DNA of 64,000 nucleotides from Escherichia phage FFH2: the sequence record KJ190158; one strand, given 5' to 3'. The position numbers and the translations under genes are program-made. A model generated the notes under the pieces. It was not told where the DNA came from, searched no databases, and saw nothing but the letters and a program-made list of their open reading frames with translations. This document shows positions 38,660 through 51,186 of the stretch, piece by piece. How positions within the stretch are numbered: position 1 is the stretch's first letter; each line of letters opens with the position of its first letter.

Positions 38660-38716
38660 GATATTTTCTCCTGTTTTCTTTGTTAGTGGCGGGAAGTTTT
38701 CCCGCCTGTGTGTTTA

Positions 38717-39231: not shown

Positions 39232-39239
39232 GTTGGTTG

Positions 39240-39437
39240 CTATTTGTCTTTGTGGCGGTATCGTTCCGCCTGTCGTTCACGTTCCAAAAGCAGGCCCGGT
39301 AATTTGCGATCATAGTGATTTCTCCAGATCTTCCCGAACCTTTTCGGTTTATTCAGTTTATTGTTACGCTGGCGGCGTTCCGGCAGCTCTTCGGAATCGT
39401 GGGGGCGCTTTACAATTTTTTCGAAATTAATTTTCAT
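39240..39437 (-). CDS. small basic protein (65 aa)
   Basis: ATG 39437 is preceded by AAAGGGGG. Rich in Arg and Lys. Confidence 0.5.
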   Translation of the reverse strand: MKINFEKIVKRPHDSEELPERRQRNNKLNKPKRFGKIWRNHYDRKLPGLLLERERQAERYRHKDK

Positions 39438-39798
39438 AAACGCCCCCTTTACTGATCTCAATATTTGCCTGAATCGCCCGGATACGACGTTTTATAGTCT
39501 CCTGATCCTTGCAATCATATCCCCAAAAGTCTACGATTTTTGCGCCGCCAGCCTTTAAGCGGTATAATGTTTCTTGCATCTTGTAAGCTGGGATCGGTCT
39601 CGGTGTTACCTGGTCCCCTTTCCCATCCTTGTACTTGATAATGTAGTCTTCGTTGTCGTTGAATACCCAAAATGGGTATTCTGTAAGCGCGTTGCTCTCT
39701 TTTTCGTTTTTGGATTGGATCTTGTTTACAATTAAAGCCGTAGCAATAGCGCCAATAATAAAACTTGCCCCGCTGATCATGTTACTTTCTCCTTTCAT
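39427..39798 (-). CDS. membrane-anchored protein
   Basis: The N-terminal ISGASFIIGAIATALIV looks like a TM anchor, followed by a soluble domain. Confidence 0.55.
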   Translation of the reverse strand: MKGESNMISGASFIIGAIATALIVNKIQSKNEKESNALTEYPFWVFNDNEDYIIKYKDGKGDQVTPRPIPAYKMQETLYRLKAGGAKIVDFWGYDCKDQETIKRRIRAIQANIEISKGGVYEN

Positions 39799-39856
39799 TG
39801 TGCTGATAAACTATCTTTATAGATGGCCCTGCCACCAGGACCACCGAAAAAACAGT

Positions 39857-40102
39857 TTATTTGACGATACCGACAAAACAGATCCCGCCTTCCCCTATAT
39901 AGGCAATATCGGTAATTTTATAATTTGTCAAGATCCGCGTGTTCAGATCATTAATAAAATCGGTCATCGCGTTGGTGTAGTTGTCTTCCGTGTCTAAGGC
40001 ATAATCCCAGGTGTAAACCTTTTTACGTCCGAAGCCTTTTACCATGATACGGGCGCTTTTGGTGTTGGTAGGGGCATAATATTTGGTAATTAGTGCGGCC
40101 AT
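39857..40102 (-). CDS. hypothetical protein
   Basis: 81-aa ORF with a TAGAGGAG SD, downstream of promoter cassette copy 2. Confidence 0.55.
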   Translation of the reverse strand: MAALITKYYAPTNTKSARIMVKGFGRKKVYTWDYALDTEDNYTNAMTDFINDLNTRILTNYKITDIAYIGEGGICFVGIVK

Positions 40103-40145
40103 TGTTTTAACTCCTCTATATTAGTTCAGTGTTAACAGTGTAAAG

Positions 40146-40192
40146 TTTACTTTATTGATGGCCCTGGAGTCAAGGCCATCTAAAAATAAATT
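40146..40192 (-). promoter_or_regulatory. 47-bp promoter cassette, copy 2
   Basis: Minus strand: AAATTTATTTTTA-GATGGCC-TTGACTCCA-GGGCCATC-AATAAAG-TAAACT. Confidence 0.7.
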
Positions 40193-40533
40193 TACTCGTT
40201 TTCTTCCAGTTCTGCAAGCTCTTCTTTCACTTCTTCAAGCTCTGTCTGTAATTCTTGGTATTCTTCATCGTCCTCAATATCCAGGCTGTCGATGTAGTCG
40301 CTAAATCCGCAGCGGTAAGCGATAGGATCTAGCTCCTTGAGGATACGCGACGGAAGAAAAGAAATGTTTCCGATCATAATTTCGCCGTAGATCTCGTCTA
40401 ACCATTCATCATAGTTTTCGTCGTACTTGTCCTCGTCGATTTCAAAGTTATCGATCTTATTCTCAAGGTCTGCGATCTGTTTTTTCAGCGCGGCGATCTG
40501 CATGGCTTTTTCTGCGGCGGTCATAGTAGTCAT
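40192..40533 (-). CDS. highly acidic coiled-coil protein (113 aa)
   Basis: About one third of residues are D or E (IDEDKYDENYDEWLDE..., DIEDDEEYQELQTELEEVKEELAELEENE). It has its own TTGACA-16-TATACT promoter and hairpin. Confidence 0.6.
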   Translation of the reverse strand: MTTMTAAEKAMQIAALKKQIADLENKIDNFEIDEDKYDENYDEWLDEIYGEIMIGNISFLPSRILKELDPIAYRCGFSDYIDSLDIEDDEEYQELQTELEEVKEELAELEENE

Positions 40534-40611
40534 GGTGTTTTCTCCTTTTGTGTGTTCTGGGAAGTTTTCCCGTTTATGTGTTTAGTATACTGATCTAAGT
40601 TAGCTTGTCAA

Positions 40612-40731
40612 TTAAAAGTTTAAGAAAAATTTTGCGATACCGTTGGCGCTACCCATCAACATTTGCGCCAGGATGTAACCAATGATGCAAACGATAATAG
40701 TTACCTTTGTGTGCTGGCGTGTAGTACTCAT
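40612..40731 (-). CDS. hydrophobic micro-protein (39 aa)
   Basis: MSTTRQHTKVTIIVCIIGYILAQMLMGSANGIAKFFLNF with an AAAGGAGG SD, downstream of promoter cassette copy 3. Confidence 0.45.
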   Translation of the reverse strand: MSTTRQHTKVTIIVCIIGYILAQMLMGSANGIAKFFLNF

Positions 40732-40764
40732 CTTCAAGCCTCCTTTTAGCTTAACTGGGATTAG

Positions 40765-40810
40765 TTTACTTTATTGATGGCCCTGGCGTCAAGACCATCT
40801 AAAAATAAAC
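40765..40810 (-). promoter_or_regulatory. 47-bp promoter cassette, copy 3
   Basis: Minus strand: AAGTTTATTTTTA-GATGGTC-TTGACGCCA-GGGCCATC-AATAAAG-TAAACT. Confidence 0.65.
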
Positions 40811-41206
40811 TTAGTAAGTTTTCAGTACTTTCCCGTCCAATCTGTCAAGCTGGATCTCGATAGCTGCAGAAAACCTATTATAAACCACATCGCCCATGGA
40901 GTCCAGCCAATCTATGACGTTATACACCTGCTCTTTATTCTTGCAAGTCCGGATCCGTTTCATTACGTAAGACGGATCAATATTAGTGCTCTCGTTGTTG
41001 TGGTCATGCGCCTGGCCTGCTGCATTAGTTATAGATTTTACAACCACCTGAAAGGGCTTTAAGGTGCCTTTTGCGTTCATCTCACGCGCTTTTGCGGCGC
41101 GGTTGTTATATGTTACACAACGGCGGCAAATGTTGACCAAATGCATATCAATAATTTTTTCATCGTTTGCCAGTTCGTTCATGATGCGGCGTACGTTCTT
41201 ATTCAT
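40811..41206 (-). CDS. hypothetical protein
   Basis: 131-aa ORF. Upstream are a TTGACA-TAAACT promoter and the hairpin GGCGGGAATGTTTCCCGCC (41225-41243). Confidence 0.6.
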   Translation of the reverse strand: MNKNVRRIMNELANDEKIIDMHLVNICRRCVTYNNRAAKAREMNAKGTLKPFQVVVKSITNAAGQAHDHNNESTNIDPSYVMKRIRTCKNKEQVYNVIDWLDSMGDVVYNRFSAAIEIQLDRLDGKVLKTY

Positions 41207-41292
41207 GATCTTTTTCCTTTGTGTTGGCGGGAAACATTCCCGCCTTTTGTGCCCAGTTTACTTTAATTTTGCAGCGTGTCAATAATTTTTTT

Positions 41293-41691
41293 TTATTCGT
41301 GGGCGCATGTCACAATGTGCTTTTTATACCCCAGGTGGGCAGCAAGTGCTGACAAAAACTCATCTTCATAGATCCAGCCGTTGGCAGTGATCCCCATAGC
41401 ATTTAACGCGCTTTCAAGTGCTGCATTGGCCTTATCATAACCGTGACCGCTCGCCTTGCCACCAGTATAACCGTACTTGTTGTTCTTGCTGTCGTGCATC
41501 CAAAAGACGCAATAATGAGTGTTACCGCTGGAGGCGGCATAGTACCGGATCTCCGCTACTTCGTGCAAATTATTATCATCGTCCAGGCCAACCAGATTAT
41601 AAGCCTTGTAAAATCCACGATCACGGCGGCAGTTCTTGACATCAGAAAAAGAGAAGTCGGCATTGTCAAAATTAAAGGTTGTGGTTTTCAT
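41293..41691 (-). CDS. hypothetical protein
   Basis: 132 aa, containing GGKASGHGYDKANAALESAL. A TTGACA-17-TATACT promoter lies upstream. Confidence 0.6.
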   Translation of the reverse strand: MKTTTFNFDNADFSFSDVKNCRRDRGFYKAYNLVGLDDDNNLHEVAEIRYYAASSGNTHYCVFWMHDSKNNKYGYTGGKASGHGYDKANAALESALNAMGITANGWIYEDEFLSALAAHLGYKKHIVTCAHE

Positions 41692-41755
41692 GATTTTATC
41701 CTCTTAGTGTCTTTTGTGATTTCAGTATATTTTGTGTCGGGGCGTATGTCAATAC

Positions 41756-41953
41756 TTATTTTTTATTAAACCAGTGATTGATCTGACCTTTTGTCAGGGC
41801 GCAACGATTAAGTTGGTGCCGGGTATAGCTCTGACCGCGACGGAATTTATAAAGGCCTTGCCCGTTGTTGATGGTTACGTCCACCTGGCAAACCATTTGA
41901 TCGGTGACCACCTGGCGAGCGTTGCGACGTACTTTGATTCCGTAGGCGTTCAT
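41756..41953 (-). CDS. small basic protein
   Basis: 65-aa ORF with an AGAGAGGATAAAA SD and a TTGACA-17-TATTCT promoter. Confidence 0.5.
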   Translation of the reverse strand: MNAYGIKVRRNARQVVTDQMVCQVDVTINNGQGLYKFRRGQSYTRHQLNRCALTKGQINHWFNKK

Positions 41954-42038
41954 GATTTTTTATCCTCTCTGTTAATTAGTGTGGTGTTGTTCACCTTGCG
42001 AGGATAAGAATAACAAGAACTGTCCGAGCTGTCAACTA

Positions 42039-42215
42039 TTAGTTAAAATTATTTTTTGGGCGGAATTCTCCAGCCGCCGCCCCTGCCAGGTTAACCATCA
42101 TTTTTTCGTACTCTTCTTTATATTCCAACGCTCCCGCTATAGCCTTTTCAACCAGGGCGATAGCCTCAGCGTCATTAATAGCTACATTTTCCAGGGGGAT
42201 CATATTACCTTTCAT
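42039..42215 (-). CDS. hypothetical protein (58 aa)
   Basis: MKGNMIPLENVAINDAEAIALVEKAIAGALEYKEEYEKMMVNLAGAAAGEFRPKNNFN with a strong SD (GAAGAGGAGG). Below the ORF-track cutoff. It is the first gene of the small-gene island. Confidence 0.55.
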   Translation of the reverse strand: MKGNMIPLENVAINDAEAIALVEKAIAGALEYKEEYEKMMVNLAGAAAGEFRPKNNFN

Positions 42216-42374
42216 TTTTGTACCTCCTCTTCAATTGTTACCTATCCTATAGCATAGGCCCACCAGGTTTACAAGCCTTCATTCTCTCCTACCTGGTCAG
42301 TTAGGTCCTGCCAGGCTGGCCCCACTAGGTTGCAGCGGTTAGTGCATCAGGTTAGAAAAATTTTTTGAAAAGTG

Positions 42375-42403
42375 TTGACAGCGGCCCCGCCAGGTGGCAC
42401 AAT
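42375..42403 (+). promoter_or_regulatory. plus-strand sigma70-like promoter P1 in the ORF-free island
   Basis: GAAAAATTTTTTGAAAA (UP-like), then TTGACA-17 nt-CACAAT. It is oriented opposite to all flanking genes. Confidence 0.5.
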
Positions 42404-42420
42404 ATACCTATCGAAAGGAC

Positions 42421-42493
42421 GGCAGGCACCGGTGACGGGGGAGACAACCACCGGGGATGGGCGCTGCATAAAATGAGAACGGTTATCATTATC
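42421..42493 (+). repeat. GC-rich structured element copy 1 plus Fur-box-like motif
   Basis: GGCAGGCACCGGTGACGGGGGAGACAACCACCGGGG... contains the CCGGTG/CACCGG stem. It is followed by GAGAACGGTTATCATTATC (42475-42493). Confidence 0.7.
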
Positions 42494-42518
42494 ATTTAAA
42501 AATTTATGCAAAAAATCC

Positions 42519-42546
42519 TTGCTTTCTTTGTCCTGTGTGATACTAT
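42519..42546 (+). promoter_or_regulatory. plus-strand sigma70-like promoter P2 (extended -10)
   Basis: TTGCTT-16 nt-TGaTACTAT. Confidence 0.45.
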
Positions 42547-42555
42547 AATAACAAG

Positions 42556-42629
42556 CCGGGGCAACAGGGGCCGGGAGACAATCACCGGGCCTGCCCGTTA
42601 TTCTGCAAACGAGAATGATTATCATTCAA
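42556..42629 (+). repeat. GC-rich structured element copy 2 plus Fur-box-like motif
   Basis: CCGGGGCAACAGGGGCCGGGAGACAATCACCGGGCCTGCCCG followed by GAGAATGATTATCATTCAA (42611-42629). Confidence 0.7.
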
Positions 42630-42742
42630 AATTCTAAATGAGAACTCCTCGCATTTAATAAATTTAATTAGCACGCTAATTACACTCCGTAACAATTTAC
42701 TATAAAATAGTATCCACTAAAATATTCCCATATAGAAATTTT

Positions 42743-43200
42743 AAAAATCCATTTCTGAAAACGAAAAATCGATTTCGTCCCTAAAAATTTCAGGCCTAGA
42801 TCCGGAACGATTTCCAGAAAATCCGATTCAGAAAACGAAAAACAGATCGAGTACTGAGAAATTTATCGAGAAAAATTTTCAGAAAATCCAAGCCCTGAAA
42901 TGAAAAGTAGATCGAGTACCTGGAAAGCTGCACCGCAACTTCAAGATAGTGGTTAGATTGTTACCATAGAAGGTCAAGGGTAAGTGGAGGAAGTTCTAGT
43001 AGAGGGAGGTTAGCATGTGTGGGAAATCTATAATGGTGGCCTGGAATATAGTGCAAACGATAGGATGAGTTATTCAGCTTGTCGCGCCTACTCTGAAAAA
43101 TCCATTTTAGTTTTCGATCCATTTTCTGATTTTCTAAGAATTTTAAAATATCCGGCCCGGTGAAATATCAAAAGGAGGAAATCCATTTTAGAAATCCCCC
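42743..43200. repeat. A/T-rich iteron field: three tandem ~65-73-nt units plus inverted copies of (A/G)GAAAATCC
   Basis: Units start at 42743, 42816 and 42881 (AGAAAATCCnnTTCnGAAAAYGAAAAnnAGATCGAGTAC...). Further AAATCCATTTT copies lie at 43095, 43177 and 43190, with inverted copies at 43115-43135. Confidence 0.75.
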
Positions 43201-43231
43201 TTATACTTGATATGCCAGGAATTTTCAAGTA

Positions 43232-43561
43232 TCAGCTGTCTTTGTTTTTAGGTTTGTACATGCGCAGAGGTATGGTCTTTGTAACATTCCATTTCCTCAA
43301 CCCTTCCCAGCTCCAGTTGTGGGCGTGATACCCGGTTATGCATGCACTGCTGGCGTGATCATAAGCATAAGAGAACGCTATGTGCACCAGGTGGGGCCAG
43401 TCCTTCCACGGCTGTGGACCGTAAGCCTTTCTCCAACACCGACACAAACTAATTGTCTCAAGAATAGGGAGAATAACAATTCCATATACCACCACCAGAA
43501 TGGTCAGTGCAATGATTGTCAGGAACACATACCCTGCAGTTGAAATGATGATCTCTGTCAT
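43232..43561 (-). CDS. membrane protein
   Basis: The N-terminal IIISTAGYVFLTIIALTILVVVYGIVILPIL is hydrophobic. Last gene of the 64-to-43-kb minus-strand block. Confidence 0.55.
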   Translation of the reverse strand: MTEIIISTAGYVFLTIIALTILVVVYGIVILPILETISLCRCWRKAYGPQPWKDWPHLVHIAFSYAYDHASSACITGYHAHNWSWEGLRKWNVTKTIPLRMYKPKNKDS

Positions 43562-43761
43562 TTGTCGTCCCCTTTCTTACGAATATAGATGTGAGAGCCT
43601 GCCTGTATATAAATTTCTCGACCATCCTCTGCAAAGATATGAAATACACGATCACCTTCGTACTCGATACGAGATATCTTCATAATGGTCTTTCCACCTG
43701 GGATACGGATCTCGTCCCCCACAGCGATGTTCCATGCAGATTTAAGCTTAAACATCTGCAC
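43558..43761 (-). CDS. hypothetical protein
   Basis: 67-aa ORF overlapping its neighbours by a few nt, consistent with translational coupling. Confidence 0.5.
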   Translation of the reverse strand: MQMFKLKSAWNIAVGDEIRIPGGKTIMKISRIEYEGDRVFHIFAEDGREIYIQAGSHIYIRKKGDDK

Positions 43762-43993
43762 CCTCCTTTGGGAACTTGAACTCTGGCATAGCCATATACG
43801 CTACAACAGGGTTGTGATCAAAGTAGAACTGACCGTTAATTATCCCGGTTTTGTCCACATAGTTACCAGATCCTGCAAGAACAACCTCGCAAGCTCCGAA
43901 ATCCACATTGCCATTCTCATCTGCCATGGCTACAATATACTTTCCTAGAGGCATGTTTTTAACGCCGTCTACAAATGTCCACCCTTTGTTCAT
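43748..43993 (-). CDS. hypothetical protein
   Basis: 81-aa ORF with an AGGAGA SD. Confidence 0.55.
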   Translation of the reverse strand: MNKGWTFVDGVKNMPLGKYIVAMADENGNVDFGACEVVLAGSGNYVDKTGIINGQFYFDHNPVVAYMAMPEFKFPKEGADV

Positions 43994-44014
43994 AACTTTA
44001 TCTCCTGGACTTTC

Positions 44015-44347
44015 TTAAGGTAACCAGTAAACAATTTCGCCTTTCAGTTCCATGTCGTTACCGACATAGATTTTCCAGCCATCCATTTTAGCCACTGCAG
44101 GAGTGAAGTCCGAAGAACCACTAACCTCTTTCCAAGTCCCGTAGTCAGGTTGCCAGATATAGAATCCACCTTCCTTGTCCCATGCTCCATATACCACATC
44201 GAGCAGGTTGCCCATTGCAACAATAGTAGGCCGTGGGAACAATGCATCTACAGATGCGCCACAATATCTAGTATCTTTTAAATTGCACTCCCAAAAGATG
44301 TCTGCCAGTGTGGCGGCGATAGCTTTACGTCTTTCTAATGTTACCAT
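44015..44347 (-). CDS. hypothetical protein
   Basis: 110-aa ORF in the co-oriented array. Confidence 0.55.
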   Translation of the reverse strand: MVTLERRKAIAATLADIFWECNLKDTRYCGASVDALFPRPTIVAMGNLLDVVYGAWDKEGGFYIWQPDYGTWKEVSGSSDFTPAVAKMDGWKIYVGNDMELKGEIVYWLP

Positions 44348-44354
44348 ATCATAC

Positions 44355-44546
44355 TCACTTGTTGTTGATAAGTTCTAAAACTTTCTGTCTTACTTTGTCA
44401 AGGTCTGTGGATTCAAAAACTGTACGATATCCCCAACTTTGCCCATAGGAGTGACTGCAATCCCCGTAGCACCATTGCTCAATTTGATAGTATTCAAGGA
44501 ACGGGTGCTGTCTAACTATGATACCATCCCGGTTAAAAATTACCAT
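44355..44546 (-). CDS. hypothetical protein
   Basis: 63-aa ORF in the co-oriented array. Confidence 0.5.
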   Translation of the reverse strand: MVIFNRDGIIVRQHPFLEYYQIEQWCYGDCSHSYGQSWGYRTVFESTDLDKVRQKVLELINNK

Positions 44547-44609
44547 AATACATCACTCTCTGTTAGTTTATGCATATATTATACACTGCAGTTTTCAGAT
44601 GTCAATCTT

Positions 44610-44804
44610 TTACAGGTTACTCCAGTATAATCGGCATTTACATTTTGGGCAATAAGGTTCTTTTATGTAATAACCATCAGTCTTTGGAACACTTTTTGGT
44701 GCAGTTTTAAGATTGTACCTGGTAAAACATCGGAAGCAGGTTACCTCTCCCACCTGTTGATCGTTGATCCACTCACCAGAGTAAAGCTCTTTCTTGTTTC
44801 TCAT
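44610..44804 (-). CDS. zinc-ribbon protein (64 aa)
   Basis: ATG 44804 is preceded by GGGAGAG. CFRCFTRY...CPKCKC form two Cys pairs. Confidence 0.5.
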   Translation of the reverse strand: MRNKKELYSGEWINDQQVGEVTCFRCFTRYNLKTAPKSVPKTDGYYIKEPYCPKCKCRLYWSNL

Positions 44805-44830
44805 AATTCTCTCCCAAATCCTCTGCAATC

Positions 44831-45001
44831 TTATACCAAAATCTCCAGCCAGAAAGCACACGGGAACACTTTGAGGATTGAATCTTTACTTGGCTCGGAA
44901 GTTCTTTTTCCGTATGGTAGGTAGAAATACCCTCCTGCAGACTCTAACACAGCCCCTTCGGTTGTATCTATCACAGCCAGAATTAAGATTTTAGTCTCCA
45001 T
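44831..45001 (-). CDS. hypothetical protein (56 aa)
   Basis: METKILILAVIDTTEGAVLESAGGYFYLPYGKRTSEPSKDSILKVFPCAFWLEILV with a GAGAGAGGGAG SD. The TTGACA-17-TATAGT promoter (45024-45057) overlaps the macro gene stop. Below the ORF-track cutoff. Confidence 0.5.
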   Translation of the reverse strand: METKILILAVIDTTEGAVLESAGGYFYLPYGKRTSEPSKDSILKVFPCAFWLEILV

Positions 45002-45054
45002 AGTGCTCCCTCTCTCAATCGTTGTGGTGACTATACCATCTCAAAAACCAGCTG

Positions 45055-45513
45055 TCAACACTTTTTGTACTCCACCACGATAATATCCATATCAAAAGTG
45101 GCAAGGTTAATAACGTCCTCTACGTGCTCCCACTTCAAACCGCCTATGCCGCACCCGATCTTAGGGATGTAGAATGGTAAAGTCGATCCACTGAATACCT
45201 CATTGACTAGCTCAAAGCCTTTCAGGATTGAGAAATATTCAGCATTAGGTCCTGGGTAGAACTGAGTATACAGATTGATTCCGTAGACAATACCTCTCGG
45301 AGATAAGTGCTCCCATCGGGAGAACGCACCCAGTTTACTTAGGCAACCATGTCTGGTCTCTTTGTCAGCTGCCAATGCTTGAGGGAACTCACGGGCAATC
45401 TGTTTTGCTATCCCCTTGCCCATTGTGTGGAAGCAGTTACAACCGTGGATCAGGTGACCAGCACCACTCTTAAAAAGGGAGATTAAATCTCCCTCTACAG
45501 TATCAATAATCAC
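45055..45513 (-). CDS. Macro domain (ADP-ribose binding / ADP-ribosylhydrolase) protein
   Basis: VEGDLISLFKSGAGHLIHGCNCFHTMGKGIAKQIAREFP and PKIGCGIGGLKWEHV match the macrodomain GD...N...G.GIA and IG.G.GG motifs. The start is set at GTG 45513 (GAGGAG 11 nt upstream). Confidence 0.75.
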   Translation of the reverse strand: MIIDTVEGDLISLFKSGAGHLIHGCNCFHTMGKGIAKQIAREFPQALAADKETRHGCLSKLGAFSRWEHLSPRGIVYGINLYTQFYPGPNAEYFSILKGFELVNEVFSGSTLPFYIPKIGCGIGGLKWEHVEDVINLATFDMDIIVVEYKKC

Positions 45514-45928
45514 GGTATGCCAGCTCCTCTTCCACAATTTCAAAAAACTCATCCCAACCTTGTGGCATATTTGAGTTACCGAAGTGGCTTTCATAGTAAA
45601 GGTTCTTACCGCTAGGAAGGTAGAAATCTGTTACCTCATAAAATCCACAATCGTCGCACTCACCTTCTTCAAACTTGGCCTTAACCTTAATACCGAGGAA
45701 GGTGAAAAGTTTATGGACATCTTCAGTTTCGAACTCCCAGGGAATGTTGTTTTCCGCATCGGTGTAGAACTGGATCAGCAGACCATTGTCCAGTTTACCA
45801 AAATACTCTGTGAAGTAACTTCCTTCCCAGAAATCTTTATGACAAATAATATCCATGCGTTTGCCCATAATAATGGTGTGAGCGTTTTGGGCATCGTCAC
45901 GAATCAGTTTTGGCATTTCATAGATCAT
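45503..45928 (-). CDS. hypothetical protein
   Basis: 141-aa ORF that overlaps the macro gene start by 11 nt. Confidence 0.55.
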   Translation of the reverse strand: MIYEMPKLIRDDAQNAHTIIMGKRMDIICHKDFWEGSYFTEYFGKLDNGLLIQFYTDAENNIPWEFETEDVHKLFTFLGIKVKAKFEEGECDDCGFYEVTDFYLPSGKNLYYESHFGNSNMPQGWDEFFEIVEEELAYRDY

Positions 45929-45996
45929 CTTAGTTCTCCGGGTTCAACAGGTGGTGGCGCTACAGGAAGATCATAAAACATAGCTATCACAGTCTC

Positions 45997-46194
45997 TTAC
46001 ACAGGAATTGCTTCAAACAGGCCGTTATCTATACCGTCCTTCAGATAGAGATTATATTCTATGTCGGTATCTGTGTAAAGGGCAGCATCCAGCATTCTAT
46101 CTGTGAGTCCATCCATTGGGTGGAGAAACCACCACCCACGCCAGTCAAAGTAACAGCCTGGTGCATCTTCTCTTACACGGATTCGATAAATCAT
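45997..46194 (-). CDS. hypothetical protein
   Basis: 65-aa ORF with a CAGGAGG SD. Confidence 0.5.
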   Translation of the reverse strand: MIYRIRVREDAPGCYFDWRGWWFLHPMDGLTDRMLDAALYTDTDIEYNLYLKDGIDNGLFEAIPV

Positions 46195-46290
46195 GGGCAG
46201 TGGCCTCCTGTTAGTTATACATCCCAGTTTTCTTCGTTCATCACGTCCTCCCGTTCTATGAAGTTATAATTGCACACCTTTCAACCTGTG

Positions 46291-46707
46291 TCAACAGAAA
46301 ACTTCAACAAATTCTTCCACAGTTTTAATGTCGTGGGAAAAAGGTTTACGGCTATAACGGGCAATAGCACTATCAACCACCGCCCGGTACTCTAAATCTT
46401 CAGAGTATTTCATGAAGCATTGTAGCGTCTCTGGACAGATAGCTAAATAGCTCCACCACCCCTCTTCAGATTGGTAGTCGAATCCCATACTCTCCAACCA
46501 TGAAGCGTACACACCTGCACCCTCTAGCCAGTGGGTATTTTCATCAAGAAATTTATTCACCGACATGTGTGCTTCCAGGCACTCGTCAAGCTCTTTTCCG
46601 TTAACCAGCCATGCACTGACTGTGGCGCATCCGAGGTCTACAGATTGAGTTGACAGGTTGTATTGGTCATAGTTCTCAGGTTTAACAATGATATCTTCTA
46701 ATGTCAT
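46291..46707 (-). CDS. hypothetical protein
   Basis: 138-aa ORF with an AAGGAGA SD right after a terminator. Confidence 0.55.
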   Translation of the reverse strand: MTLEDIIVKPENYDQYNLSTQSVDLGCATVSAWLVNGKELDECLEAHMSVNKFLDENTHWLEGAGVYASWLESMGFDYQSEEGWWSYLAICPETLQCFMKYSEDLEYRAVVDSAIARYSRKPFSHDIKTVEEFVEVFC

Positions 46708-46723
46708 TTTTCAGATCTCCTTA

Positions 46724-46754
46724 TACAAAAATGCCCCACCCTTTCGGGCAGGGC
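46724..46754 (-). terminator. rho-independent terminator (same 22-nt stem-loop as at 58453)
   Basis: Minus strand: GCCCTGCCC-gaaa-GGGTGGGGC followed by ATTTTT. Confidence 0.75.
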
Positions 46755-46769
46755 TATGTTAACTAGATG

Positions 46770-47996
46770 TTAAAACGGTATGTCATCATCAAAGGCGTAC
46801 TGTGCTGGATTCTGATCCATCGGGTCATCTTCCTCATCATTTACAGGAGGAGCGTCTACAGTGTTTTGCTGTGGAGCTGCTTCCTGTTTGGCAGCCTGAG
46901 GTTCTTGATGGTCAGTTGACCCAGCACCGTTCTTGATCCAATCGTACAACGGCTCAGCCAGATTAGTCAAGACATCTTTTGCTTCTGCAGTAATTGCCAC
47001 TGCAAAATCATCAACTTTCGTTTTCTTGTCAATACGGCGACAAGCGTTCAACACCGCATTACCGACACTGGCACCTACTTCATCTTCAGTTCGGTTGGTG
47101 GCTTGAGCATACTCTTTCTTAAGCTCAATGGTGACTACGTGCAGTGTTTTAGCCACTCCCAGTGGGTCGTCTACCTTAAACCCGCGATCCAGGATGATCT
47201 GCAACGCATTGATGCTATGCCCCGTTTCCACACCGATAGGGTCGTAAGAGGATTTACGCTTGCCACCAGATCCTTGAGTGCCGTTCTCTGCCTTAGGGGG
47301 ATAGGCCTTGAAACCACTGATAATGTTTCCGGTGTCTTTGTCAACAATGGCTGCAACACGACCACCTACCACCAGGTCTTTAAGCTGCTCATCAGTTACA
47401 ACCATAGCACCTTCGCCAATCTTGTGGTCATTAACAGTAACCACGTTGCCAACAATCTGAGTCACATCACCATAGATGCGTAAAACGTCCTGATTGGCAT
47501 TCTGCTGAGGTTTCTGCTTCTGGCCTTGTGATTGTGCACCTTGTTGCTGTTTTTGCTGCTGAGTCGCTGCTGGAGCCTCTCCTGCACCCAGCTTAACCAT
47601 CTTAGCCAGTGAGCCCTTGTAATAGGTCTTACCGTTATGCTCGTTTGCCTTCAAAGGGATATTTACGATCCATCCTGGCGTTACGGTTTCCCACTTGTCA
47701 TCAATCTTAACAGAGACAGAGTCTTGATGACCTGGTTTAAGCAGCTTATCACCCATGCTGATCCAGACTTCTTCACCACCTTGAAGCAGGTTATCAGAGG
47801 AATCCAGTTCAGAAATCAGTAAAGAGATGGTGTGGCTGGATTCAATTTTCTTACCTTGCCACACAGTGGTTTTAATACCTGTTGTAGGATCAGCACCTTT
47901 AATAGGCTTGATGCTAACACGTTTAATCATGCCGTGAGCTAGTAAAACAGTTTCACGCGGATTCATTGGGTTAGCGAATTGTTGAATAACGCTCAT
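46770..47996 (-). CDS. single-stranded DNA-binding protein (atypical, 408 aa)
   Basis: The C terminus ...AQYAFDDDIPF has the same last six residues as E. coli SSB. A Gln/Gly-rich linker (QQQKQQQGAQSQGQKQKPQQ) separates beta-rich domains. The gene lies in the replication module. Confidence 0.7.
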   Translation of the reverse strand: MSVIQQFANPMNPRETVLLAHGMIKRVSIKPIKGADPTTGIKTTVWQGKKIESSHTISLLISELDSSDNLLQGGEEVWISMGDKLLKPGHQDSVSVKIDDKWETVTPGWIVNIPLKANEHNGKTYYKGSLAKMVKLGAGEAPAATQQQKQQQGAQSQGQKQKPQQNANQDVLRIYGDVTQIVGNVVTVNDHKIGEGAMVVTDEQLKDLVVGGRVAAIVDKDTGNIISGFKAYPPKAENGTQGSGGKRKSSYDPIGVETGHSINALQIILDRGFKVDDPLGVAKTLHVVTIELKKEYAQATNRTEDEVGASVGNAVLNACRRIDKKTKVDDFAVAITAEAKDVLTNLAEPLYDWIKNGAGSTDHQEPQAAKQEAAPQQNTVDAPPVNDEEDDPMDQNPAQYAFDDDIPF

Positions 47997-48361
47997 TATT
48001 TGTCTCCTTGTTCTTCGTTAGTGCTTGCCGTGTGTGCGAACCCTGCTTGAATTAATTTGTCCTGAACTTGAGCCAACAGGCCCATTGCAAAACTTGTGGT
48101 CCCAGAGAGGGCCATCAGCATATCCCGTTGTTGAGCTACCCAACCTAAGGCATAGTCCAAACGACGATATTTTTCTTCTTCACGCAGAGCCTGAAATAAT
48201 TGTTCAGCCTCCGGTTGTTGTGTGAGCTCCTGAAGTCTTCCCATGAAAGAAGAAAGCACTAGCAAAAGAGACACTTGATCTTTACTTAACCCTAAGAAAA
48301 ATTCTTGAGGTTGTTCTTGCTCGTTCATCGCAACCGACTCTTGATCGTTCATTTGTTCCAT
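47996..48361 (-). CDS. hypothetical protein
   Basis: 121-aa ORF whose stop overlaps the SSB start. Confidence 0.55.
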   Translation of the reverse strand: MEQMNDQESVAMNEQEQPQEFFLGLSKDQVSLLLVLSSFMGRLQELTQQPEAEQLFQALREEEKYRRLDYALGWVAQQRDMLMALSGTTSFAMGLLAQVQDKLIQAGFAHTASTNEEQGDK

Positions 48362-48444
48362 TATGGAATCTCCGATTTTATTTGAACAACATAGAAGGAG
48401 ACACTATTTTAGCATCCCCTTCTGTAAATTACAATAGGTATTTG

Positions 48445-48690
48445 TTAGCCAATCACTTCGAAAGTTCCCCAATTCCCGTCCAGCAGGCAGGTGATCGGAT
48501 CCCCATCGTCGTCAAAGATTTCAAAGTTTTCAGCATCCAGGATGTGGCCCTCGAACACAATACTTTCGTCGCCACCACCAGAGATAACAGCGTATTCCTT
48601 ACCTTGAGTCAAGTTTTGACACCCTTTGCCACCAAAACCTACTTCAACACAACGTACTTTCTGTCCTGCGCGAGCAACTACTTCAGTCAT
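48445..48690 (-). CDS. hypothetical protein
   Basis: 81-aa ORF with an AGGAGA SD. Confidence 0.55.
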   Translation of the reverse strand: MTEVVARAGQKVRCVEVGFGGKGCQNLTQGKEYAVISGGGDESIVFEGHILDAENFEIFDDDGDPITCLLDGNWGTFEVIG

Positions 48691-48707
48691 CTTAAGGTCT
48701 CCTGATA

Positions 48708-49028
48708 TTAATCGTCAAGTTCAAAATAGATTTTAACAGCTTCATCGAAGATTGGAATCCCGATGTTGTTGATAAGCTGCCAAACTACCATATCTTTACC
48801 TGGATCTGGGAGAATGTCAACCTTTCTCCATGCGCTGTATACCCAGTTCGGACCGCCTTCTGCACTAACTGGCAGATTTTCACCAGCCTCCTGTAGATAC
48901 TTATACAGCAAAAGATATTCTGGATACTCCAGAACACTGTCCTCTGTAGTATATAGCAGTTCACGGTATACTTTTAAGAACCCTGCTGGGGTGATGTTTT
49001 CAGTCTTCATTTGCTGCTTCTCCTGCAT
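48708..49028 (-). CDS. hypothetical protein
   Basis: 106-aa ORF in the co-oriented array. Confidence 0.55.
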   Translation of the reverse strand: MQEKQQMKTENITPAGFLKVYRELLYTTEDSVLEYPEYLLLYKYLQEAGENLPVSAEGGPNWVYSAWRKVDILPDPGKDMVVWQLINNIGIPIFDEAVKIYFELDD

Positions 49029-49389
49029 TCATCAGATCTGCCATAGCGTCACCCACGAAGAGAACAACCACATCGTTTACCGCGTCAGCATCATCTTTGT
49101 TGACGTTGCTGAATTTAGGACACACAGCAATAATCATATAGACACCGTTACCCACCTGAACTGTCCGTGTGGTGCACATCATGGCGGTATTTGTGCCTTC
49201 TTTGAAGGCGAAGCCTTGAAGACGCTCCTCTAGAGTGTTACCGGTAGACTTCAGAAGCGCCAGCTCGTCCAAGGCATAGATGATATCTCCGGAAGTTAGT
49301 GTTGCCTTGCCATCAGACACCATAATCACTCCATCAGCACCGTCAAGCTTAGAGGCTTCAAAGATATCAATATCCCAAATATTTTTCAT
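49000..49389 (-). CDS. hypothetical protein
   Basis: 129-aa ORF whose start overlaps the upstream stop. Confidence 0.55.
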   Translation of the reverse strand: MKNIWDIDIFEASKLDGADGVIMVSDGKATLTSGDIIYALDELALLKSTGNTLEERLQGFAFKEGTNTAMMCTTRTVQVGNGVYMIIAVCPKFSNVNKDDADAVNDVVVLFVGDAMADLMNAGEAANED

Positions 49390-49661
49390 TACGCTTCCTC
49401 GTCGTCTAAGTAATCATCAAGAGAGGTGAAGATTTCACCGAAGTATTCTAAGATTTCTAGCTCACGTGTGGTGCAGCAAACATAATCGCCTTGGTCGTCC
49501 TTAATAGTGGCCTCTTTACCCAGAATATCTACTTCAAGTTCATCGTTCAACAGGACGGCCCCTGTGTAAACTTTGTCAGCTGTGCAGTCCCGAAAAGCAG
49601 AGTCCTTCTCCAGATAGTCTGGCTTAACCTTGGCTTTAATTCGTTGGTATTGTTTGGTCAT
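49389..49661 (-). CDS. hypothetical protein, paralogue of 49725-49979
   Basis: ATG 49661 is preceded by AAAGGGGA. KVKPDYLEKDSAFRDCTADKVY...KDDQGDYVCCT compares with LKPECVANDRAFKDCTVGAIY...KDDEGDSVWCT. Confidence 0.55.
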   Translation of the reverse strand: MTKQYQRIKAKVKPDYLEKDSAFRDCTADKVYTGAVLLNDELEVDILGKEATIKDDQGDYVCCTTRELEILEYFGEIFTSLDDYLDDEEA

Positions 49662-49683
49662 TGTTGTGGTCCCCTTTCGTTTT

Positions 49684-49721
49684 GATAGGACCATTGTATT
49701 AGGTCCTATCGCTGTTGTCAA
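49684..49721 (-). promoter_or_regulatory. sigma70-type promoter with its -10 box in the loop of a 9-bp inverted repeat
   Basis: Minus strand: TTGACA-acagc-GATAGGACC-taaTACAAT-GGTCCTATC. The spacer is 17 nt. Confidence 0.6.
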
Positions 49722-49724
49722 GTA

Positions 49725-49979
49725 TTAATGTTCAGGTTTTACAAAAACGACTTCATTAACAGTGCACCAGACAGAGTCTCCTTCATCATCTTTAAAGGTA
49801 AGGCACTGTGCTGAGTTTTCCAGCTCATCGATCTCTTCTTGTGATAAAGGGGCCCCTTCTTCCAGAAGGGCTTTTACCAGAGGGTTCTCACAAAACTCTG
49901 CTTCATAAATTGCACCGACTGTGCAATCTTTAAAAGCTCGGTCATTTGCAACGCATTCTGGCTTCAAAGTAATTTTCAT
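49725..49979 (-). CDS. hypothetical protein
   Basis: 84-aa ORF with an AAGGAGA SD. Confidence 0.55.
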   Translation of the reverse strand: MKITLKPECVANDRAFKDCTVGAIYEAEFCENPLVKALLEEGAPLSQEEIDELENSAQCLTFKDDEGDSVWCTVNEVVFVKPEH

Positions 49980-50055
49980 CTTGGCAGTCTCCTTAGTTAT
50001 TTAAAAATCACCGATCTGTTTGTGTGAAGCATCTTATATCTAATCTTACTTCTTG

Positions 50056-50427
50056 TCAATGGCTATTTTCAATCAGCCACACAGGGTCGAGGTAAATTTG
50101 TTGGCGTGTTGCCCAATGACAAACTTCATTGTACATCTGAATCTCTTTGTCCGTCAGTTCACGAATAGGCTCATCTATACCCTCATTTTTGTGGTAATCC
50201 CAGTCGGCATCGATTTCCCACAGCCATGACTTGTTGTCACCACGCTTACGCACACAGAAGTCACCGGGACGGCCTGCCAATGCATTTAAGAACTCGTTCT
50301 CCGCTCGCTCTTGGAGAATACTAAGGAGCAAAACGTTAGAACATGACCGTAGAATATGCTTCAGCTCACAATCATCAATCTCAACTTCAATACGTTGTTT
50401 GACTGTGTGGGTACCTTTTACTAACAT
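50056..50427 (-). CDS. hypothetical protein
   Basis: ATG 50427 is preceded by TAGAGGAGGTAGG. Confidence 0.55.
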   Translation of the reverse strand: MLVKGTHTVKQRIEVEIDDCELKHILRSCSNVLLLSILQERAENEFLNALAGRPGDFCVRKRGDNKSWLWEIDADWDYHKNEGIDEPIRELTDKEIQMYNEVCHWATRQQIYLDPVWLIENSH

Positions 50428-50437
50428 CCTACCTCCT

Positions 50438-50632
50438 CTAAACGAACTCTGCAAGGGTTGTGTTGTTCACTGCACCGCAGTAAATGGAGTATCCCAGCCC
50501 ATTAGAGTGCAGAAACCACGGCGTTCCGAAATTATCTTTCACGTAGACATCGCCGTTGCTTGTAAAGGGCCAATATTCTTCGCCAAGGGTAAAATACCTA
50601 CTCATACCTTCAGCAAGATACTTTACTTTCAT
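50438..50632 (-). CDS. small paralogue family B member
   Basis: ...GEEYWPFTSNGDVYVKDNFGTPWFLHSNG... shares the G..Y....(I/V)KD..G..W(F/Y)L pattern with the next two genes. Confidence 0.55.
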   Translation of the reverse strand: MKVKYLAEGMSRYFTLGEEYWPFTSNGDVYVKDNFGTPWFLHSNGLGYSIYCGAVNNTTLAEFV

Positions 50633-50856
50633 AGGTCCTCTTCTACAGCTACAAACTTGGCAAGCAGGGTGGTTCCGTAGATATGATACTCACCGTTTGC
50701 CAGATGGGAGATAAACCAGGCAATCCCTTCCTCGTCTTTAATCATCTTGTTTGCACGATTTTTATCGTAATAAACCTCGTAGGTCTTTCCTTCTTTAAAG
50801 AATGACAGGTCTGTCATCTTTTCTTCTACAAAAGTAGCTTTAACCAAAGTTGTCAT
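50629..50856 (-). CDS. small paralogue family B member
   Basis: ...EGKTYEVYYDKNRANKMIKDEEGIAWFISHLANG... Confidence 0.55.
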   Translation of the reverse strand: MTTLVKATFVEEKMTDLSFFKEGKTYEVYYDKNRANKMIKDEEGIAWFISHLANGEYHIYGTTLLAKFVAVEEDL

Positions 50857-51137
50857 TGATCGGTCTCCTTCTTGTTAAGTCTGAATACTGCAATAATAAC
50901 ATTCCCAAGGTGCAGTGTCAAATCATTTCCAAGATACCACAACATTCCACGGTCATCTTTGATGAAAGGGTAACAATCTGGTGCCTTCCAGACATTGTAC
51001 ACTTTCCCAACCTGAAAGAAATCAGGCCCTGTTGGGATTTTGGTACCAGGCCACACTTGAGATACCTGAACACACTCCACCTGCATAATAACAGGGATAG
51101 TCATAGATGTAAATGTTTTTGTTGGTTCTACTACCAT
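50853..51137 (-). CDS. small paralogue family B member
   Basis: ATG 51137 is preceded by AAAGAGGAGA. ...VGKVYNVWKAPDCYPFIKDDRGMLWYLGNDL... Confidence 0.5.
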   Translation of the reverse strand: MVVEPTKTFTSMTIPVIMQVECVQVSQVWPGTKIPTGPDFFQVGKVYNVWKAPDCYPFIKDDRGMLWYLGNDLTLHLGNVIIAVFRLNKKETDQ

Positions 51138-51186
51138 AAAAGTCTCCTCTTTGCTCAACAACACTTCCATGTGTTGATAGTTTACA

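What the first reader, a model, noticed from the sequence alone, without database searches (positions are those of the whole stretch)
44610..45928. Macrodomain protein in a small operon: candidate counter-defence against ADP-ribosylation
The protein encoded at 45055-45513 carries the macrodomain motifs GDL...HGCNC...GKGIAKQI and IGCGIGGL. Macrodomains bind or hydrolyse ADP-ribose adducts.

In a lytic phage, plausible roles are reversing host ADP-ribosylating defences (DarT-type DNA toxins, or RNA and protein ADP-ribosyltransferases) or degrading ADP-ribose-derived signals.

The gene overlaps an unknown 141-aa gene upstream. Downstream are a promoter overlapping its stop codon, a 56-aa gene and a zinc-ribbon gene.
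Basis: partly seen in the sequence, partly recalled or inferred. Interest (0 to 1): 0.6.

Follow-up and report, generated by a model that had tools for sequence, protein, structure and literature searches.

The report
Phage macrodomain, T4 Tk.4/AdfM-type
This rV5-like E. coli phage carries an intact early gene for a small macrodomain enzyme, a clear relative of phage T4 Tk.4 (AdfM), which lets T4 escape the bacterial DarTG2 defence that ADP-ribosylates DNA; it is a real but already recognised kind of anti-defence gene.

Summary
All four genes lie on the minus strand of a Vequintavirus (rV5-like) genome. The gene at 45055-45513 has a GTG start and encodes 152 aa. It is a high-confidence macrodomain of the ALC1-like/TARG1/DarG/Poa1p class (AlphaFold pLDDT 96.9).

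It is 39% identical over its full length to T4 Tk.4 (E 2e-40). It is 68% identical to the Krischvirus protein that sits at the tk.4 position. A 2025 preprint showed that deleting tk.4 sensitises T4 to DarTG2 and named the gene adfM.

In a 58-member family alignment, Asn26 and Gln84 are invariant. Gln84 occupies the position of the catalytic Lys in DarG, TARG1 and PhiKZ AdfM. It matches Gln85 of Streptomyces SCO6735, which is essential there for cleaving thymidine-linked ADP-ribose from DNA.

The most likely function is early-expressed removal of DarT2 ADP-ribose marks from phage ssDNA.

The "operon" claim is weaker. The 141-aa partner overlaps the macro gene by 11 nt, but its Krischvirus homologues are not linked to a macro gene. 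The 56-aa and zinc-ribbon genes have their own conserved promoter.

The gene is already annotated as a macro domain protein in many GenBank records. It is a new member of a known kind, of modest interest.

The parts
45055..45513 (-). Macrodomain gene: 152 aa, GTG start, Tk.4/AdfM family, Gln-type ALC1-like class
   Evidence: ORF. Pfam Macro, NCBIfam DarG 1.5e-12, PADLOC DarG, PHROG 335 2e-59. 39% identity, E 2e-40, to T4 Tk.4. AF2 pLDDT 96.9. Foldseek to TARG1, Poa1p and DarG and to phage tk.4 proteins. Invariant N26 and Q84. dN/dS 0.11 against the Murica allele.
45503..45928 (-). 141-aa gene of unknown function; its stop overlaps the macro GTG start by 11 nt, so translational coupling is possible
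   Evidence: PHROG 8157 4.8e-82, function unknown. No Pfam, NCBIfam, PADLOC or PDB match. AF2 model unusable, pLDDT 42. Found in 175 phage records; the Krischvirus copies lie next to dam, not next to a macro gene. The syntenic gene bas54_0091 is non-essential.
45030..45058 (-). Sigma70-like promoter (TTGACA, 17 nt, extended -10 TGgTATAGT); the -35 hexamer overlaps the macro stop codon. It drives the 56-aa and zinc-ribbon genes.
   Evidence: 11 of 12 matches, TG present. Position conserved in both allele types despite a diverged spacer.
44831..45001 (-). 56-aa gene of unknown function
   Evidence: PHROG 15268 1.9e-42. SD GGGAG upstream. Size varies among relatives: 38, 56 or 66 aa.
44610..44804 (-). 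Zinc-ribbon gene (64 aa from ATG 44804; the 83-aa GTG ORF to 44861 is probably an over-extension)
   Evidence: Pfam PF23903 Phage_zn_bind_2 1.4e-21. The PHROG 4864 match starts at residue 20 of the 83-aa ORF. Annotated as a 195-nt CDS in Bas48, Bas50 and Bas58. SD GGGAGAG.
44578..44605 (-). Perfect-consensus sigma70 promoter (TTGACA-16-TATAAT) just after the zinc-ribbon stop; it starts the next unit
   Evidence: 12 of 12 matches.
46051..46079 (-). Promoter-like site (TTTACA-17-TATAAT) inside the upstream 65-aa gene; the nearest candidate promoter for the 141-aa and macro gene pair
   Evidence: 11 of 12 matches. No terminator lies between it and the macro gene. The nearest strong terminator upstream is at 46754-46733. 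The assignment is an inference.

Best explanation
The gene encodes a stand-alone, orphan-antitoxin-like ADP-ribosyl glycohydrolase of the T4 Tk.4/AdfM family.

Proposed mechanism:
1. It is transcribed, probably early, by host RNA polymerase from consensus sigma70 promoters (timing inferred).
2. It binds ADP-ribose attached to thymine in single-stranded phage DNA. This mark is written by host DarT2 toxins of DarTG2 defence systems and blocks replication.
3. It hydrolyses the ribose-base bond, releasing ADP-ribose and restoring the DNA.

Catalysis is predicted to follow the SCO6735 type rather than the DarG type. Invariant Gln84, held by invariant Asn26, would position the distal ribose in place of the catalytic lysine of DarG and TARG1. 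The Gly-rich loop 119-IGCGIGG-125 would bind the diphosphate.

What is shown and what is inferred:
- Shown here: fold, class, family membership, residue conservation, purifying selection and promoter context.
- Shown elsewhere for homologues: T4 tk.4 is needed to resist DarTG2, and SCO6735 Gln85 and Asn27 are essential for cleaving thymidine-ADP-ribose.
- Inferred: that this Vequintavirus protein has the same substrate and role.
For: Family membership:
- 39% identity over the full length to T4 Tk.4, E 2e-40.
- 68% identity to the GEC-3S protein located between vs and tk, the tk.4 position.
- Foldseek BFVD: the second-ranked hit is a phage tk.4 protein, TM 0.89.

Function of homologues:
- T4 tk.4 deletion sensitises T4 to DarTG2; the gene was named adfM.
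- The closest curated profiles are DarG.
- The best PDB matches are Mtb DarG, BT1257, SCO6735, TARG1 and Poa1p.

Active site:
- Q84 and N26 are invariant in 58 family members.
- Q84 aligns with SCO6735 Gln85 and with DarG, TARG1 and PhiKZ Lys.
- SCO6735 Q85A and N27S mutants lose thymidine-ADPr DNA hydrolase activity, and SCO6735 protects against DarT.

Selection and dispensability:
- dN/dS is 0.11 across a deeply diverged allele (dS about 1), with all key residues kept.
- The syntenic Bas54 gene is non-essential in the laboratory (31 of 31 TA sites hit), as expected for an accessory anti-defence gene.

Expression:
- The gene sits in an array of consensus sigma70 promoters, all on the coding strand.
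Against: - No experiment exists on any Vequintavirus macrodomain. The Bas54 transposon library was not challenged with DarTG2.
- The T4 evidence is genetic only, with no biochemistry, and comes from a preprint.
- The catalytic lysine of DarG is absent, so the mechanism rests on analogy with SCO6735, which is only about 23% identical in the structural alignment.
- ALC1-like macrodomains are promiscuous. TARG1 and SCO6735 also act on protein-linked ADP-ribose and on uracil-ADP-ribose in RNA. Poa1p acts on ADP-ribose-1''-phosphate.
- Lys33, which aligns with SCO6735 Lys34, is Ala in the family consensus, and SCO6735 Lys89 has no counterpart.
Confidence: 0.7

Rival explanations
1. It processes small ADP-ribose metabolites or signals. 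Candidates are ADP-ribose-1''-phosphate (the historical 'A1pp phosphatase' annotation, Poa1p-like), O-acetyl-ADP-ribose, and ADP-ribose-derived immune signals or toxins from TIR, Thoeris or RES-type systems. On this view it does not act on DNA adducts.
For: - PHROG 335 and many GenBank records call it a 'phosphatase', 'Poa1p-like' or 'O-acetyl-ADP-ribose deacetylase'.
- Poa1p is among the top structural matches, and the IH(G/S)CNC motif is shared.
- In some Vibrio phages the homologue lies next to a ribose-phosphate pyrophosphokinase gene.
Against: - The only phenotype known for a family member (T4 tk.4) is sensitivity to DarTG2.
- The invariant Gln/Asn pair matches the DNA-active SCO6735, not a feature specific to Poa1p.
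- The annotations are transfers by homology, not tests.
Confidence: 0.12
2. Its main substrate is ADP-ribosylated RNA (uracil-linked or phosphate-linked) or protein (Glu/Asp-linked). It would protect the phage from other host ADP-ribosyltransferase toxins, or tune ADP-ribosylation during infection. DarT2 reversal would be only a side activity.
For: - TARG1, DarG and SCO6735 all remove uracil-ADPr from RNA (PMC13036486).
- SCO6735 also removes protein ADPr.
- The family occurs in 2781 of 50,697 phage records across many hosts. This seems broader than one defence system would require, which is an inference.
Against: - No bacterial uracil-directed RNA ADP-ribosyltransferase defence is cited in the papers read.
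- SCO6735 was reported inactive on 5'-phosphate- and 2'-OH-linked RNA ADPr in the results of PMC11833690.
- T-even phages that carry Tk.4 remain sensitive to the adenine-directed mRNA ART CmdT (abstract of PMC11618068).
Confidence: 0.12
3. It acts mainly without catalysis, either by binding and inhibiting DarT-like toxins directly or by sequestering ADP-ribose ligands.
For: Catalytically dead SCO6735 Q85A still inhibited DarT in vitro by interaction. The protein lacks the catalytic Lys of DarG.
Against: - The Gln, Asn and Gly-loop positions needed for SCO6735 catalysis are invariant across a family with only 27% mean column identity. That pattern points to an enzyme.
- The DarT-binding C-terminal domain of DarG is absent: the match covers profile positions 3-141 of 338.
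Confidence: 0.05

Closest known systems
Phage T4 Tk.4 = AdfM (anti-DarT factor Macrodomain; HIDEN-SEQ preprint, bioRxiv 10.1101/2025.11.20.689424)
   Same: Same family. 39% identity over the whole length, similar size (152 vs 155 aa). Same invariant residues, including NLYTQ with Gln at the 'catalytic Lys' position and HGCNC. Stand-alone small gene among early genes. Dispensable in the laboratory.
   Different: Different genomic neighbourhood: between vs and tk.3 in T4, and after a 141-aa unknown gene here. Different phage lineage (Vequintavirinae vs Straboviridae). Anti-DarTG2 activity has not been tested for this protein.
Chimallivirus AdfM (PhiKZ gp104; Cell Rep 2026, PMC13309987)
   Same: Phage-encoded orphan macrodomain of the same ALC1-like class. 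It removes DarT2 ADP-ribose from DNA and protects the phage from DarTG2.
   Different: Only 21% identical (hhalign probability 97.5). PhiKZ gp104 keeps the DarG-type catalytic Lys78 (FPTK), where this protein has Gln84 (LYTQ). It is imported into the phage nucleus. It is a separate lineage and probably an independent acquisition.
DarG2 antitoxin macrodomain (T. aquaticus and M. tuberculosis; PDB 5M31, 5M3E, 5M3I)
   Same: Best curated profile match and the top single-sequence PDB match. Same fold. Conserved Asn (DarG N22 = N26) and the Gly-rich phosphate loop.
   Different: No catalytic Lys80. No C-terminal DarT-binding domain. No adjacent darT gene. NCBIfam score is 47.5 against a cut-off of 250.
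Streptomyces coelicolor SCO6735 (PDB 5E3B) and Bacteroides BT1257 (PDB 2FG1, 2AFC)
   Same: Stand-alone ALC1-like macrodomains with Gln in place of the catalytic Lys, plus the His and Asn of the H-x-C-N motif. SCO6735 cleaves thymidine-ADPr DNA and protects against DarT. They are among the best profile matches, 8.5e-17 to 5.8e-16.
   Different: They are cellular proteins. Identity is about 21-23% in structural alignments. SCO6735 has a longer mobile loop with Lys89 that is absent here.
Human TARG1 and yeast Poa1p
   Same: Top Foldseek hits (TM 0.7-0.85). Same macrodomain class.
   Different: The TARG1 catalytic dyad Lys84/Asp125 is absent here (Gln84, and Gly at the Asp position). The Poa1p substrate, ADP-ribose-1''-phosphate, has no known role in infection by this phage.

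Membership tests
T4 Tk.4/AdfM family of phage macrodomains | Full-length sequence homology to T4 Tk.4 | tested here: met
   BLASTP gives 39% identity over 153 columns, E 2e-40. tblastn hits fall on genes annotated tk.4 in T-even phages. A BFVD structural hit is labelled tk.4, TM 0.89.
T4 Tk.4/AdfM family of phage macrodomains | Family-invariant residues (G24, N26, G34, A36, N80, Q84, P117, G120) | tested here: met
   All are present in the window protein. They are invariant in alignment A1 with T4 Tk.4 (59 sequences) and in A2 without it (58 sequences).
T4 Tk.4/AdfM family of phage macrodomains | Protects the phage against DarTG2 | not testable with these tools
   Shown only for T4 tk.4. Needs plaque assays.
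DarG2 antitoxin (NCBIfam NF048014) | Score above the equivalog cut-off; two-domain architecture with a C-terminal DarT-binding domain | tested here: not met
   47.5 bits against a cut-off of 250. Only profile positions 3-141 of 338 are matched, and the protein is 152 aa.
DarG2 antitoxin (NCBIfam NF048014) | Catalytic lysine (Taq DarG K80) | tested here: not met
   The position is Gln84 in alignments to 5M3I, to TARG1 and to PhiKZ gp104.
DarG2 antitoxin (NCBIfam NF048014) | Adjacent darT toxin gene | tested here: not met
   The neighbouring genes have no ART, DarT, Pfam or PADLOC match. The phage is virulent and has no match in E. coli genomes.
ALC1-like / TARG1-like macrodomain class | Macrodomain fold closest to TARG1, DarG, Poa1p and SCO6735 rather than to the MacroD, PARG or viral Mac1 types | tested here: met
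   Foldseek PDB ranks 1-25 are TARG1, Poa1p, DarG, BT1257, TTHA0132 (2dx6) and SCO6735, interspersed with designed hydrolases, at 4e-10 to 1e-6. Coronavirus and alphavirus macrodomains and macroH2A rank lower, at about 2e-6 to 2e-5. The profile search of PDB gives the same set.
SCO6735-type (Gln-type) thymidine-ADPr hydrolases | Gln at the catalytic-Lys position, stabilised by the Asn of the H-x-C-N motif | tested here: met
   Alignment to 5E3B: H23/N26/Q84 correspond to H24/N27/Q85. The functional importance of these residues in SCO6735 comes from PMC9411070. The three-dimensional contact between Q84 and N26 in the model could not be inspected with these tools.
SCO6735-type (Gln-type) thymidine-ADPr hydrolases | Hydrolysis of thymidine-linked ADP-ribose on ssDNA | not testable with these tools
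   Needs an in vitro assay.
Poa1p-like ADP-ribose-1''-phosphate phosphatase | Sequence and structure similarity to yeast Poa1p, including the IHxCNC His | tested here: inconclusive
   By phmmer, Poa1p aligns only in two segments (6-47 and 115-146). The profile E-value is 3e-14, weaker than for BT1257, DarG or SCO6735. Foldseek gives 1.5e-9 but rmsd above 4 A. Phosphatase activity is untested.

The most novel reading that the evidence does not exclude
Phage 'AdfM' may be two mechanistically different inventions. One is a Lys-type, DarG2-derived enzyme in nucleus-forming jumbo phages. The other is a much more widespread Gln-type (SCO6735-like) enzyme in T4-like, rV5-like and many other virulent phages. 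The Gln-type may have a different chemistry and a broader substrate range, covering thymine-ADPr DNA and uracil-ADPr RNA. In Vequintaviruses the translationally coupled 141-aa protein could be an accessory factor for it. The deep allele swap confined to this gene (dS about 1 within 99-100% identical flanks) would then reflect exchange of variants matched to different host toxins.
Probability: 0.2. Interest if true: 0.5.

Novelty: new member of a known kind. Interest (0 to 1): 0.3.

Why it matters
The result gives a specific, testable function to a gene that most Vequintavirus records label 'hypothetical protein' or, misleadingly, 'phosphatase'. That function is anti-DarTG2 DNA de-ADP-ribosylation. 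rV5-like phages are used in E. coli O157 biocontrol and phage therapy, so knowing which host defences they can neutralise helps predict host range.

The Gln-for-Lys substitution, invariant across the Tk.4 family, also shows that the two published phage 'AdfM' proteins (T4 and PhiKZ) belong to different catalytic lineages. Anyone designing catalytic-dead controls or inhibitors needs to account for this.

Tried and rejected
- Alternative start: the 179-aa ATG-initiated ORF (to 45594) was rejected in favour of the GTG at 45513. Reasons: the homologue N-termini, the annotated CDSs and the SD.
- 141-aa partner: no Pfam, NCBIfam, PADLOC or PDB match. Only 3 full-length homologue clusters turned up in the large protein search. 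The AlphaFold model was unusable (pLDDT 42), so no fold search was run. Its Krischvirus homologues lie next to dam, which argues against obligate linkage with the macro gene.
- Membership of DarG proper was rejected: no Lys, no C-terminal domain, no darT gene.
- MacroD, PARG and viral Mac1-type assignment was rejected because those structures rank lower.
- Prophage or host origin was rejected: no match in 5,426 E. coli genomes.
- Bas54: I could not identify its GenBank record. Orthology of bas54_0092 rests on identical gene lengths, gene order and the 11-nt overlap in the preprint's gene table. Bas48, Bas50 and Bas58 were checked directly.
- The LeRoux 2022 DarTG paper is not held in the library, so the sensitivity of Vequintavirinae to DarTG2 could not be looked up.
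- The CmdTAC paper contains no test of macrodomains.
Full report
**What the window is**

The 1.8-kb region around the finding is 91-97% identical to more than 110 complete genomes of rV5-like E. coli myoviruses (Vequintavirus, about 136 kb). It has no match in 5,426 complete E. coli genomes. This fits a strictly virulent phage.

All genes of the finding are on the minus strand.

**Checking the observation**

The macro ORF ends at 45055.
It gives a 152-aa protein, (M)IIDTVEGDL...
- This is the CDS annotated in relatives, and it aligns from residue 1 with T4 Tk.4.
- The longer ATG ORF (179 aa) listed mechanically is not supported.

The quoted motifs are all present: GDL, HGCNC, GKGIAKQI and IGCGIGGL.

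The neighbouring features are as described, with one correction.
- The upstream 141-aa gene (45503-45928) overlaps the GTG start by 11 nt.
- A sigma70-like promoter, TTGACA-17 nt-TGgTATAGT at 45058->45030, has its -35 hexamer across the TGA stop codon.
- This promoter is retained at the same place in a strongly diverged allele: TTGACG...TGaTATAGT in Murica and Bas50.
- Downstream are a 56-aa gene (44831-45001; PHROG 15268, 1.9e-42) and a zinc-ribbon gene (Pfam PF23903, 1.4e-21).
- The zinc-ribbon gene most likely starts at ATG 44804 (64 aa), not at the GTG of the 83-aa ORF.

**What the protein is**

Sequence evidence:
- Pfam recognises only the N-terminal third as Macro (28.3 bits, cut-off 22).
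- The DarG antitoxin profiles of NCBIfam (1.5e-12, residues 5-144) and PADLOC (7.6e-14) cover the whole domain.

Structure evidence:
- An AlphaFold2 model built on 58 homologues is very confident (pLDDT 96.9, pTM 0.91).
- Its best PDB matches are TARG1, Poa1p, DarG (T. aquaticus and M. tuberculosis), BT1257 and SCO6735.
- Coronavirus and alphavirus macrodomains and macroH2A rank lower.
- A profile search of PDB sequences gives the same set at 1e-14 to 1e-17.

The protein therefore belongs to the ALC1-like/TARG1-like class of macrodomains.

**Family membership**

- The protein is 39% identical over its whole length to phage T4 Tk.4 (E 2e-40).
- It is 68% identical to the Krischvirus GEC-3S protein encoded between vs and tk, the tk.4 position.
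- tblastn finds homologues in 2781 of 50,697 phage records. Hosts include Escherichia, Klebsiella, Salmonella, Pseudomonas, Vibrio, Acinetobacter and Aeromonas. The phage groups include T-even phages, Krischviruses and Vequintaviruses, plus roughly 85-kb and roughly 155-kb enterobacterial phages that were not classified here.
- In the BFVD viral structure library, the second-ranked hit is annotated tk.4 (TM 0.89).

**What is known about that family**

A 2025 preprint (HIDEN-SEQ, bioRxiv 10.1101/2025.11.20.689424) screened a T4 transposon library on a DarTG2 host.
- tk.4 was the single conditionally essential gene.
- A clean tk.4 deletion sensitised T4 to DarTG2.
- The authors named the gene adfM, for anti-DarT factor Macrodomain.

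Independently, a 2026 Cell Reports paper (PMC13309987) named the PhiKZ gp104 macrodomain AdfM. It showed that this protein removes DarT2 ADP-ribose from DNA.

**Catalytic residues**

In a 58-sequence alignment with only 27% mean column identity:
- The invariant positions are G24, N26, G34, A36, N80, Q84, P117 and G120.
- Nearly invariant are H23, C27, Y82, T83, G122 and G125.

N26 corresponds to DarG N22 and SCO6735 N27.

Q84 (motif NLYTQ) occupies the position of the catalytic lysine:
- M. tuberculosis DarG has FPTK at this position.
- TARG1 has ITKK.
- PhiKZ gp104 has FPTK, Lys78.

The same position is Gln in BT1257 and SCO6735 (MIGQ).

For SCO6735, PMC9411070 reports the following:
- Gln85 is equivalent to DarG Lys80 and TARG1 Lys84.
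- Q85A and Q85E mutants abolish hydrolysis of thymidine-linked ADP-ribose on DNA, and N27S almost abolishes it.
- The enzyme protects against DarT.

So the DarG-type lysine is absent, but the alternative and experimentally validated Gln/Asn arrangement is present and invariant. T4 Tk.4, which works genetically against DarTG2, has the same Gln.

It follows that the two published phage 'AdfM' proteins belong to different catalytic lineages. They are 21% identical. PhiKZ is Lys-type; T4 and this phage are Gln-type.

**Evidence that the gene is functional and accessory**

Compared with phage Murica:
- The flanks are 99-100% identical, but identity falls to 70-85% exactly across the macro ORF.
- Within the ORF, dS is about 1.0 and dN/dS is 0.11. 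All 24 amino-acid differences lie outside the invariant positions.

This pattern indicates replacement by an anciently diverged allele under strong purifying selection. It does not indicate decay.

In the HIDEN-SEQ supplementary tables, phage Bas54 shows the same gene lengths, order and 11-nt overlap as the window: 417, 198, 426, 459, 171, 195, 192 and 333 nt.
- The 459-nt gene bas54_0092 is non-essential (31 of 31 TA sites hit).
- The 141-aa, 56-aa and zinc-ribbon counterparts are also non-essential.
- Orthology here is inferred from synteny. Bas48, Bas50 and Bas58 were verified directly.
- The Bas54 library was not challenged with DarTG2.

**Context and the 'operon' claim**

The gene sits downstream, in the direction of transcription, of the replication genes. 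These are a DnaB-like helicase, an HNH endonuclease and a family A DNA polymerase.

It lies in a long run of small minus-strand genes.
- All thirteen best sigma70-like promoter matches in 36-56 kb are on the minus strand.
- There are 67 promoter-like sites, against 38.7 +/- 6.3 in shuffled sequence.
- This fits host-RNA-polymerase, and therefore probably early, transcription.

The nearest candidate promoter for the 141-aa and macro pair is at 46079->46051. The 56-aa and zinc-ribbon genes have the promoter at 45058. A perfect-consensus promoter at 44605 starts the next unit.

The 141-aa protein:
- It has no detectable domain.
- Only 3 full-length homologue clusters turned up in the large protein search, and its model failed.
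- Its Krischvirus homologues lie next to dam rather than next to the Tk.4 gene.

The overlap may give translational coupling. Even so, there is no evidence of a functional module. The four genes are neighbours rather than an operon with a shared role.

**Mechanism proposed**

1. Host RNA polymerase transcribes the gene, probably early in infection (timing inferred).
2. If the host carries DarTG2, released DarT2 ADP-ribosylates thymines in phage ssDNA. This blocks replication (established for DarTG).
3. The macrodomain binds the ADP-ribose moiety through the GxG and IGCGIGG loops.
4. Gln84, held by Asn26, positions the distal ribose. The N-glycosidic bond to thymine is hydrolysed by the water-mediated route proposed for SCO6735.
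5. Intact DNA is regenerated.

Steps 3-5 are inferred by homology. My confidence that this is the principal role is about 0.7.

**Rival explanations**

- Metabolite or signal processing. This covers the old 'A1pp phosphatase / Poa1p-like / OAADPr deacetylase' annotations and the argument of PMC9503650 that phage macrodomains mostly target soluble ADPr derivatives.
- RNA or protein de-ADP-ribosylation as the main role. TARG1-like enzymes including SCO6735 also cleave uracil-ADPr RNA.
- Non-catalytic inhibition of DarT. Catalytically dead SCO6735 Q85A still inhibits DarT.

None of these has family-specific evidence. CmdTAC is unlikely to be a target, because T-even phages carrying Tk.4 are robustly restricted by it (abstract of PMC11618068).

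**Novelty and verdict**

The macrodomain is already annotated as such in many GenBank Vequintavirus records. Its family has a published anti-defence function.

What this analysis adds:
- The explicit link of the Vequintavirus gene to Tk.4/AdfM.
- The assignment to the Gln-type (SCO6735-like) catalytic subclass, as distinct from DarG and chimallivirus AdfM.
- The allele-swap and purifying-selection signature.
- A corrected gene and promoter map.

It is a new member of a known kind, of modest interest (0.3).

Noticed in passing
window 46770-47996 (minus strand): A 408-aa protein with no Pfam or PDB match (PHROG 4477, unknown function) ends in ...AFDDDIPF. From memory, this matches the C-terminal tip of E. 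coli SSB that recruits host replication and repair proteins. The protein has Gln/Gly-rich linkers. Its syntenic Bas54 gene (bas54_0087) scores as essential in HIDEN-SEQ. It is a candidate phage SSB or SSB-tail mimic that goes unannotated in most records. A strong intrinsic terminator follows at 46754-46733.
   Followed up: partly
window 45055-45480, and also 43950-44350 and 46500-46640: Mosaic divergence against phage Murica: identity drops to 70-85% in sharply bounded blocks within flanks that are 99-100% identical. For the macro gene, dS is about 1.0 and dN/dS is 0.11. This points to allele replacement by recombination with a deeply diverged variant. The 110-aa gene (44015-44347) and part of the 138-aa gene show similar blocks.
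   Followed up: partly
GenBank MG0656xx records (hits H12, H24, H25, H132-H134 and others): Sixteen unannotated records named 'Campylobacter phage' (host Campylobacter jejuni, 128-143 kb) match this region; the twelve that match the macro gene are 91-99% identical to it. The host or name is probably wrong, or the phages were propagated on or contaminated from E. coli.
   Followed up: no
window 36000-56000: The thirteen best sigma70 consensus promoter matches, including two perfect TTGACA-16-TATAAT sites at 44605 and 38744, are all on the minus strand. Several have a -35 hexamer that overlaps or directly abuts the stop codon of the preceding small gene (45058, 44605, 46294). This looks like a compact cassette organisation of the early region.
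   Followed up: partly
Vibrio phages Ceto, Thalassa and VPMCC14 (hits H79, H81, H85): In these phages the Tk.4-like macrodomain gene lies beside a ribose-phosphate pyrophosphokinase gene. This hints at a link with NAD+/ADP-ribose salvage in some lineages.
   Followed up: no
BFVD hit A0A481YV05: The best viral structural match (TM 0.93, 39% identity) is a Marseillevirus protein annotated as SNF2 subfamily. A Tk.4-like macrodomain therefore also occurs in a giant eukaryotic virus, reminiscent of the ALC1 macro-SNF2 architecture.
   Followed up: no
window 54804-55538 and 51736-52242 (minus strand): HNH endonuclease genes (HNH_3 plus an AP2 domain) are inserted beside the DnaB-like helicase (55597-57675) and the family A DNA polymerase (52378-54807) genes. 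They are likely homing endonucleases in the replication module.
   Followed up: no
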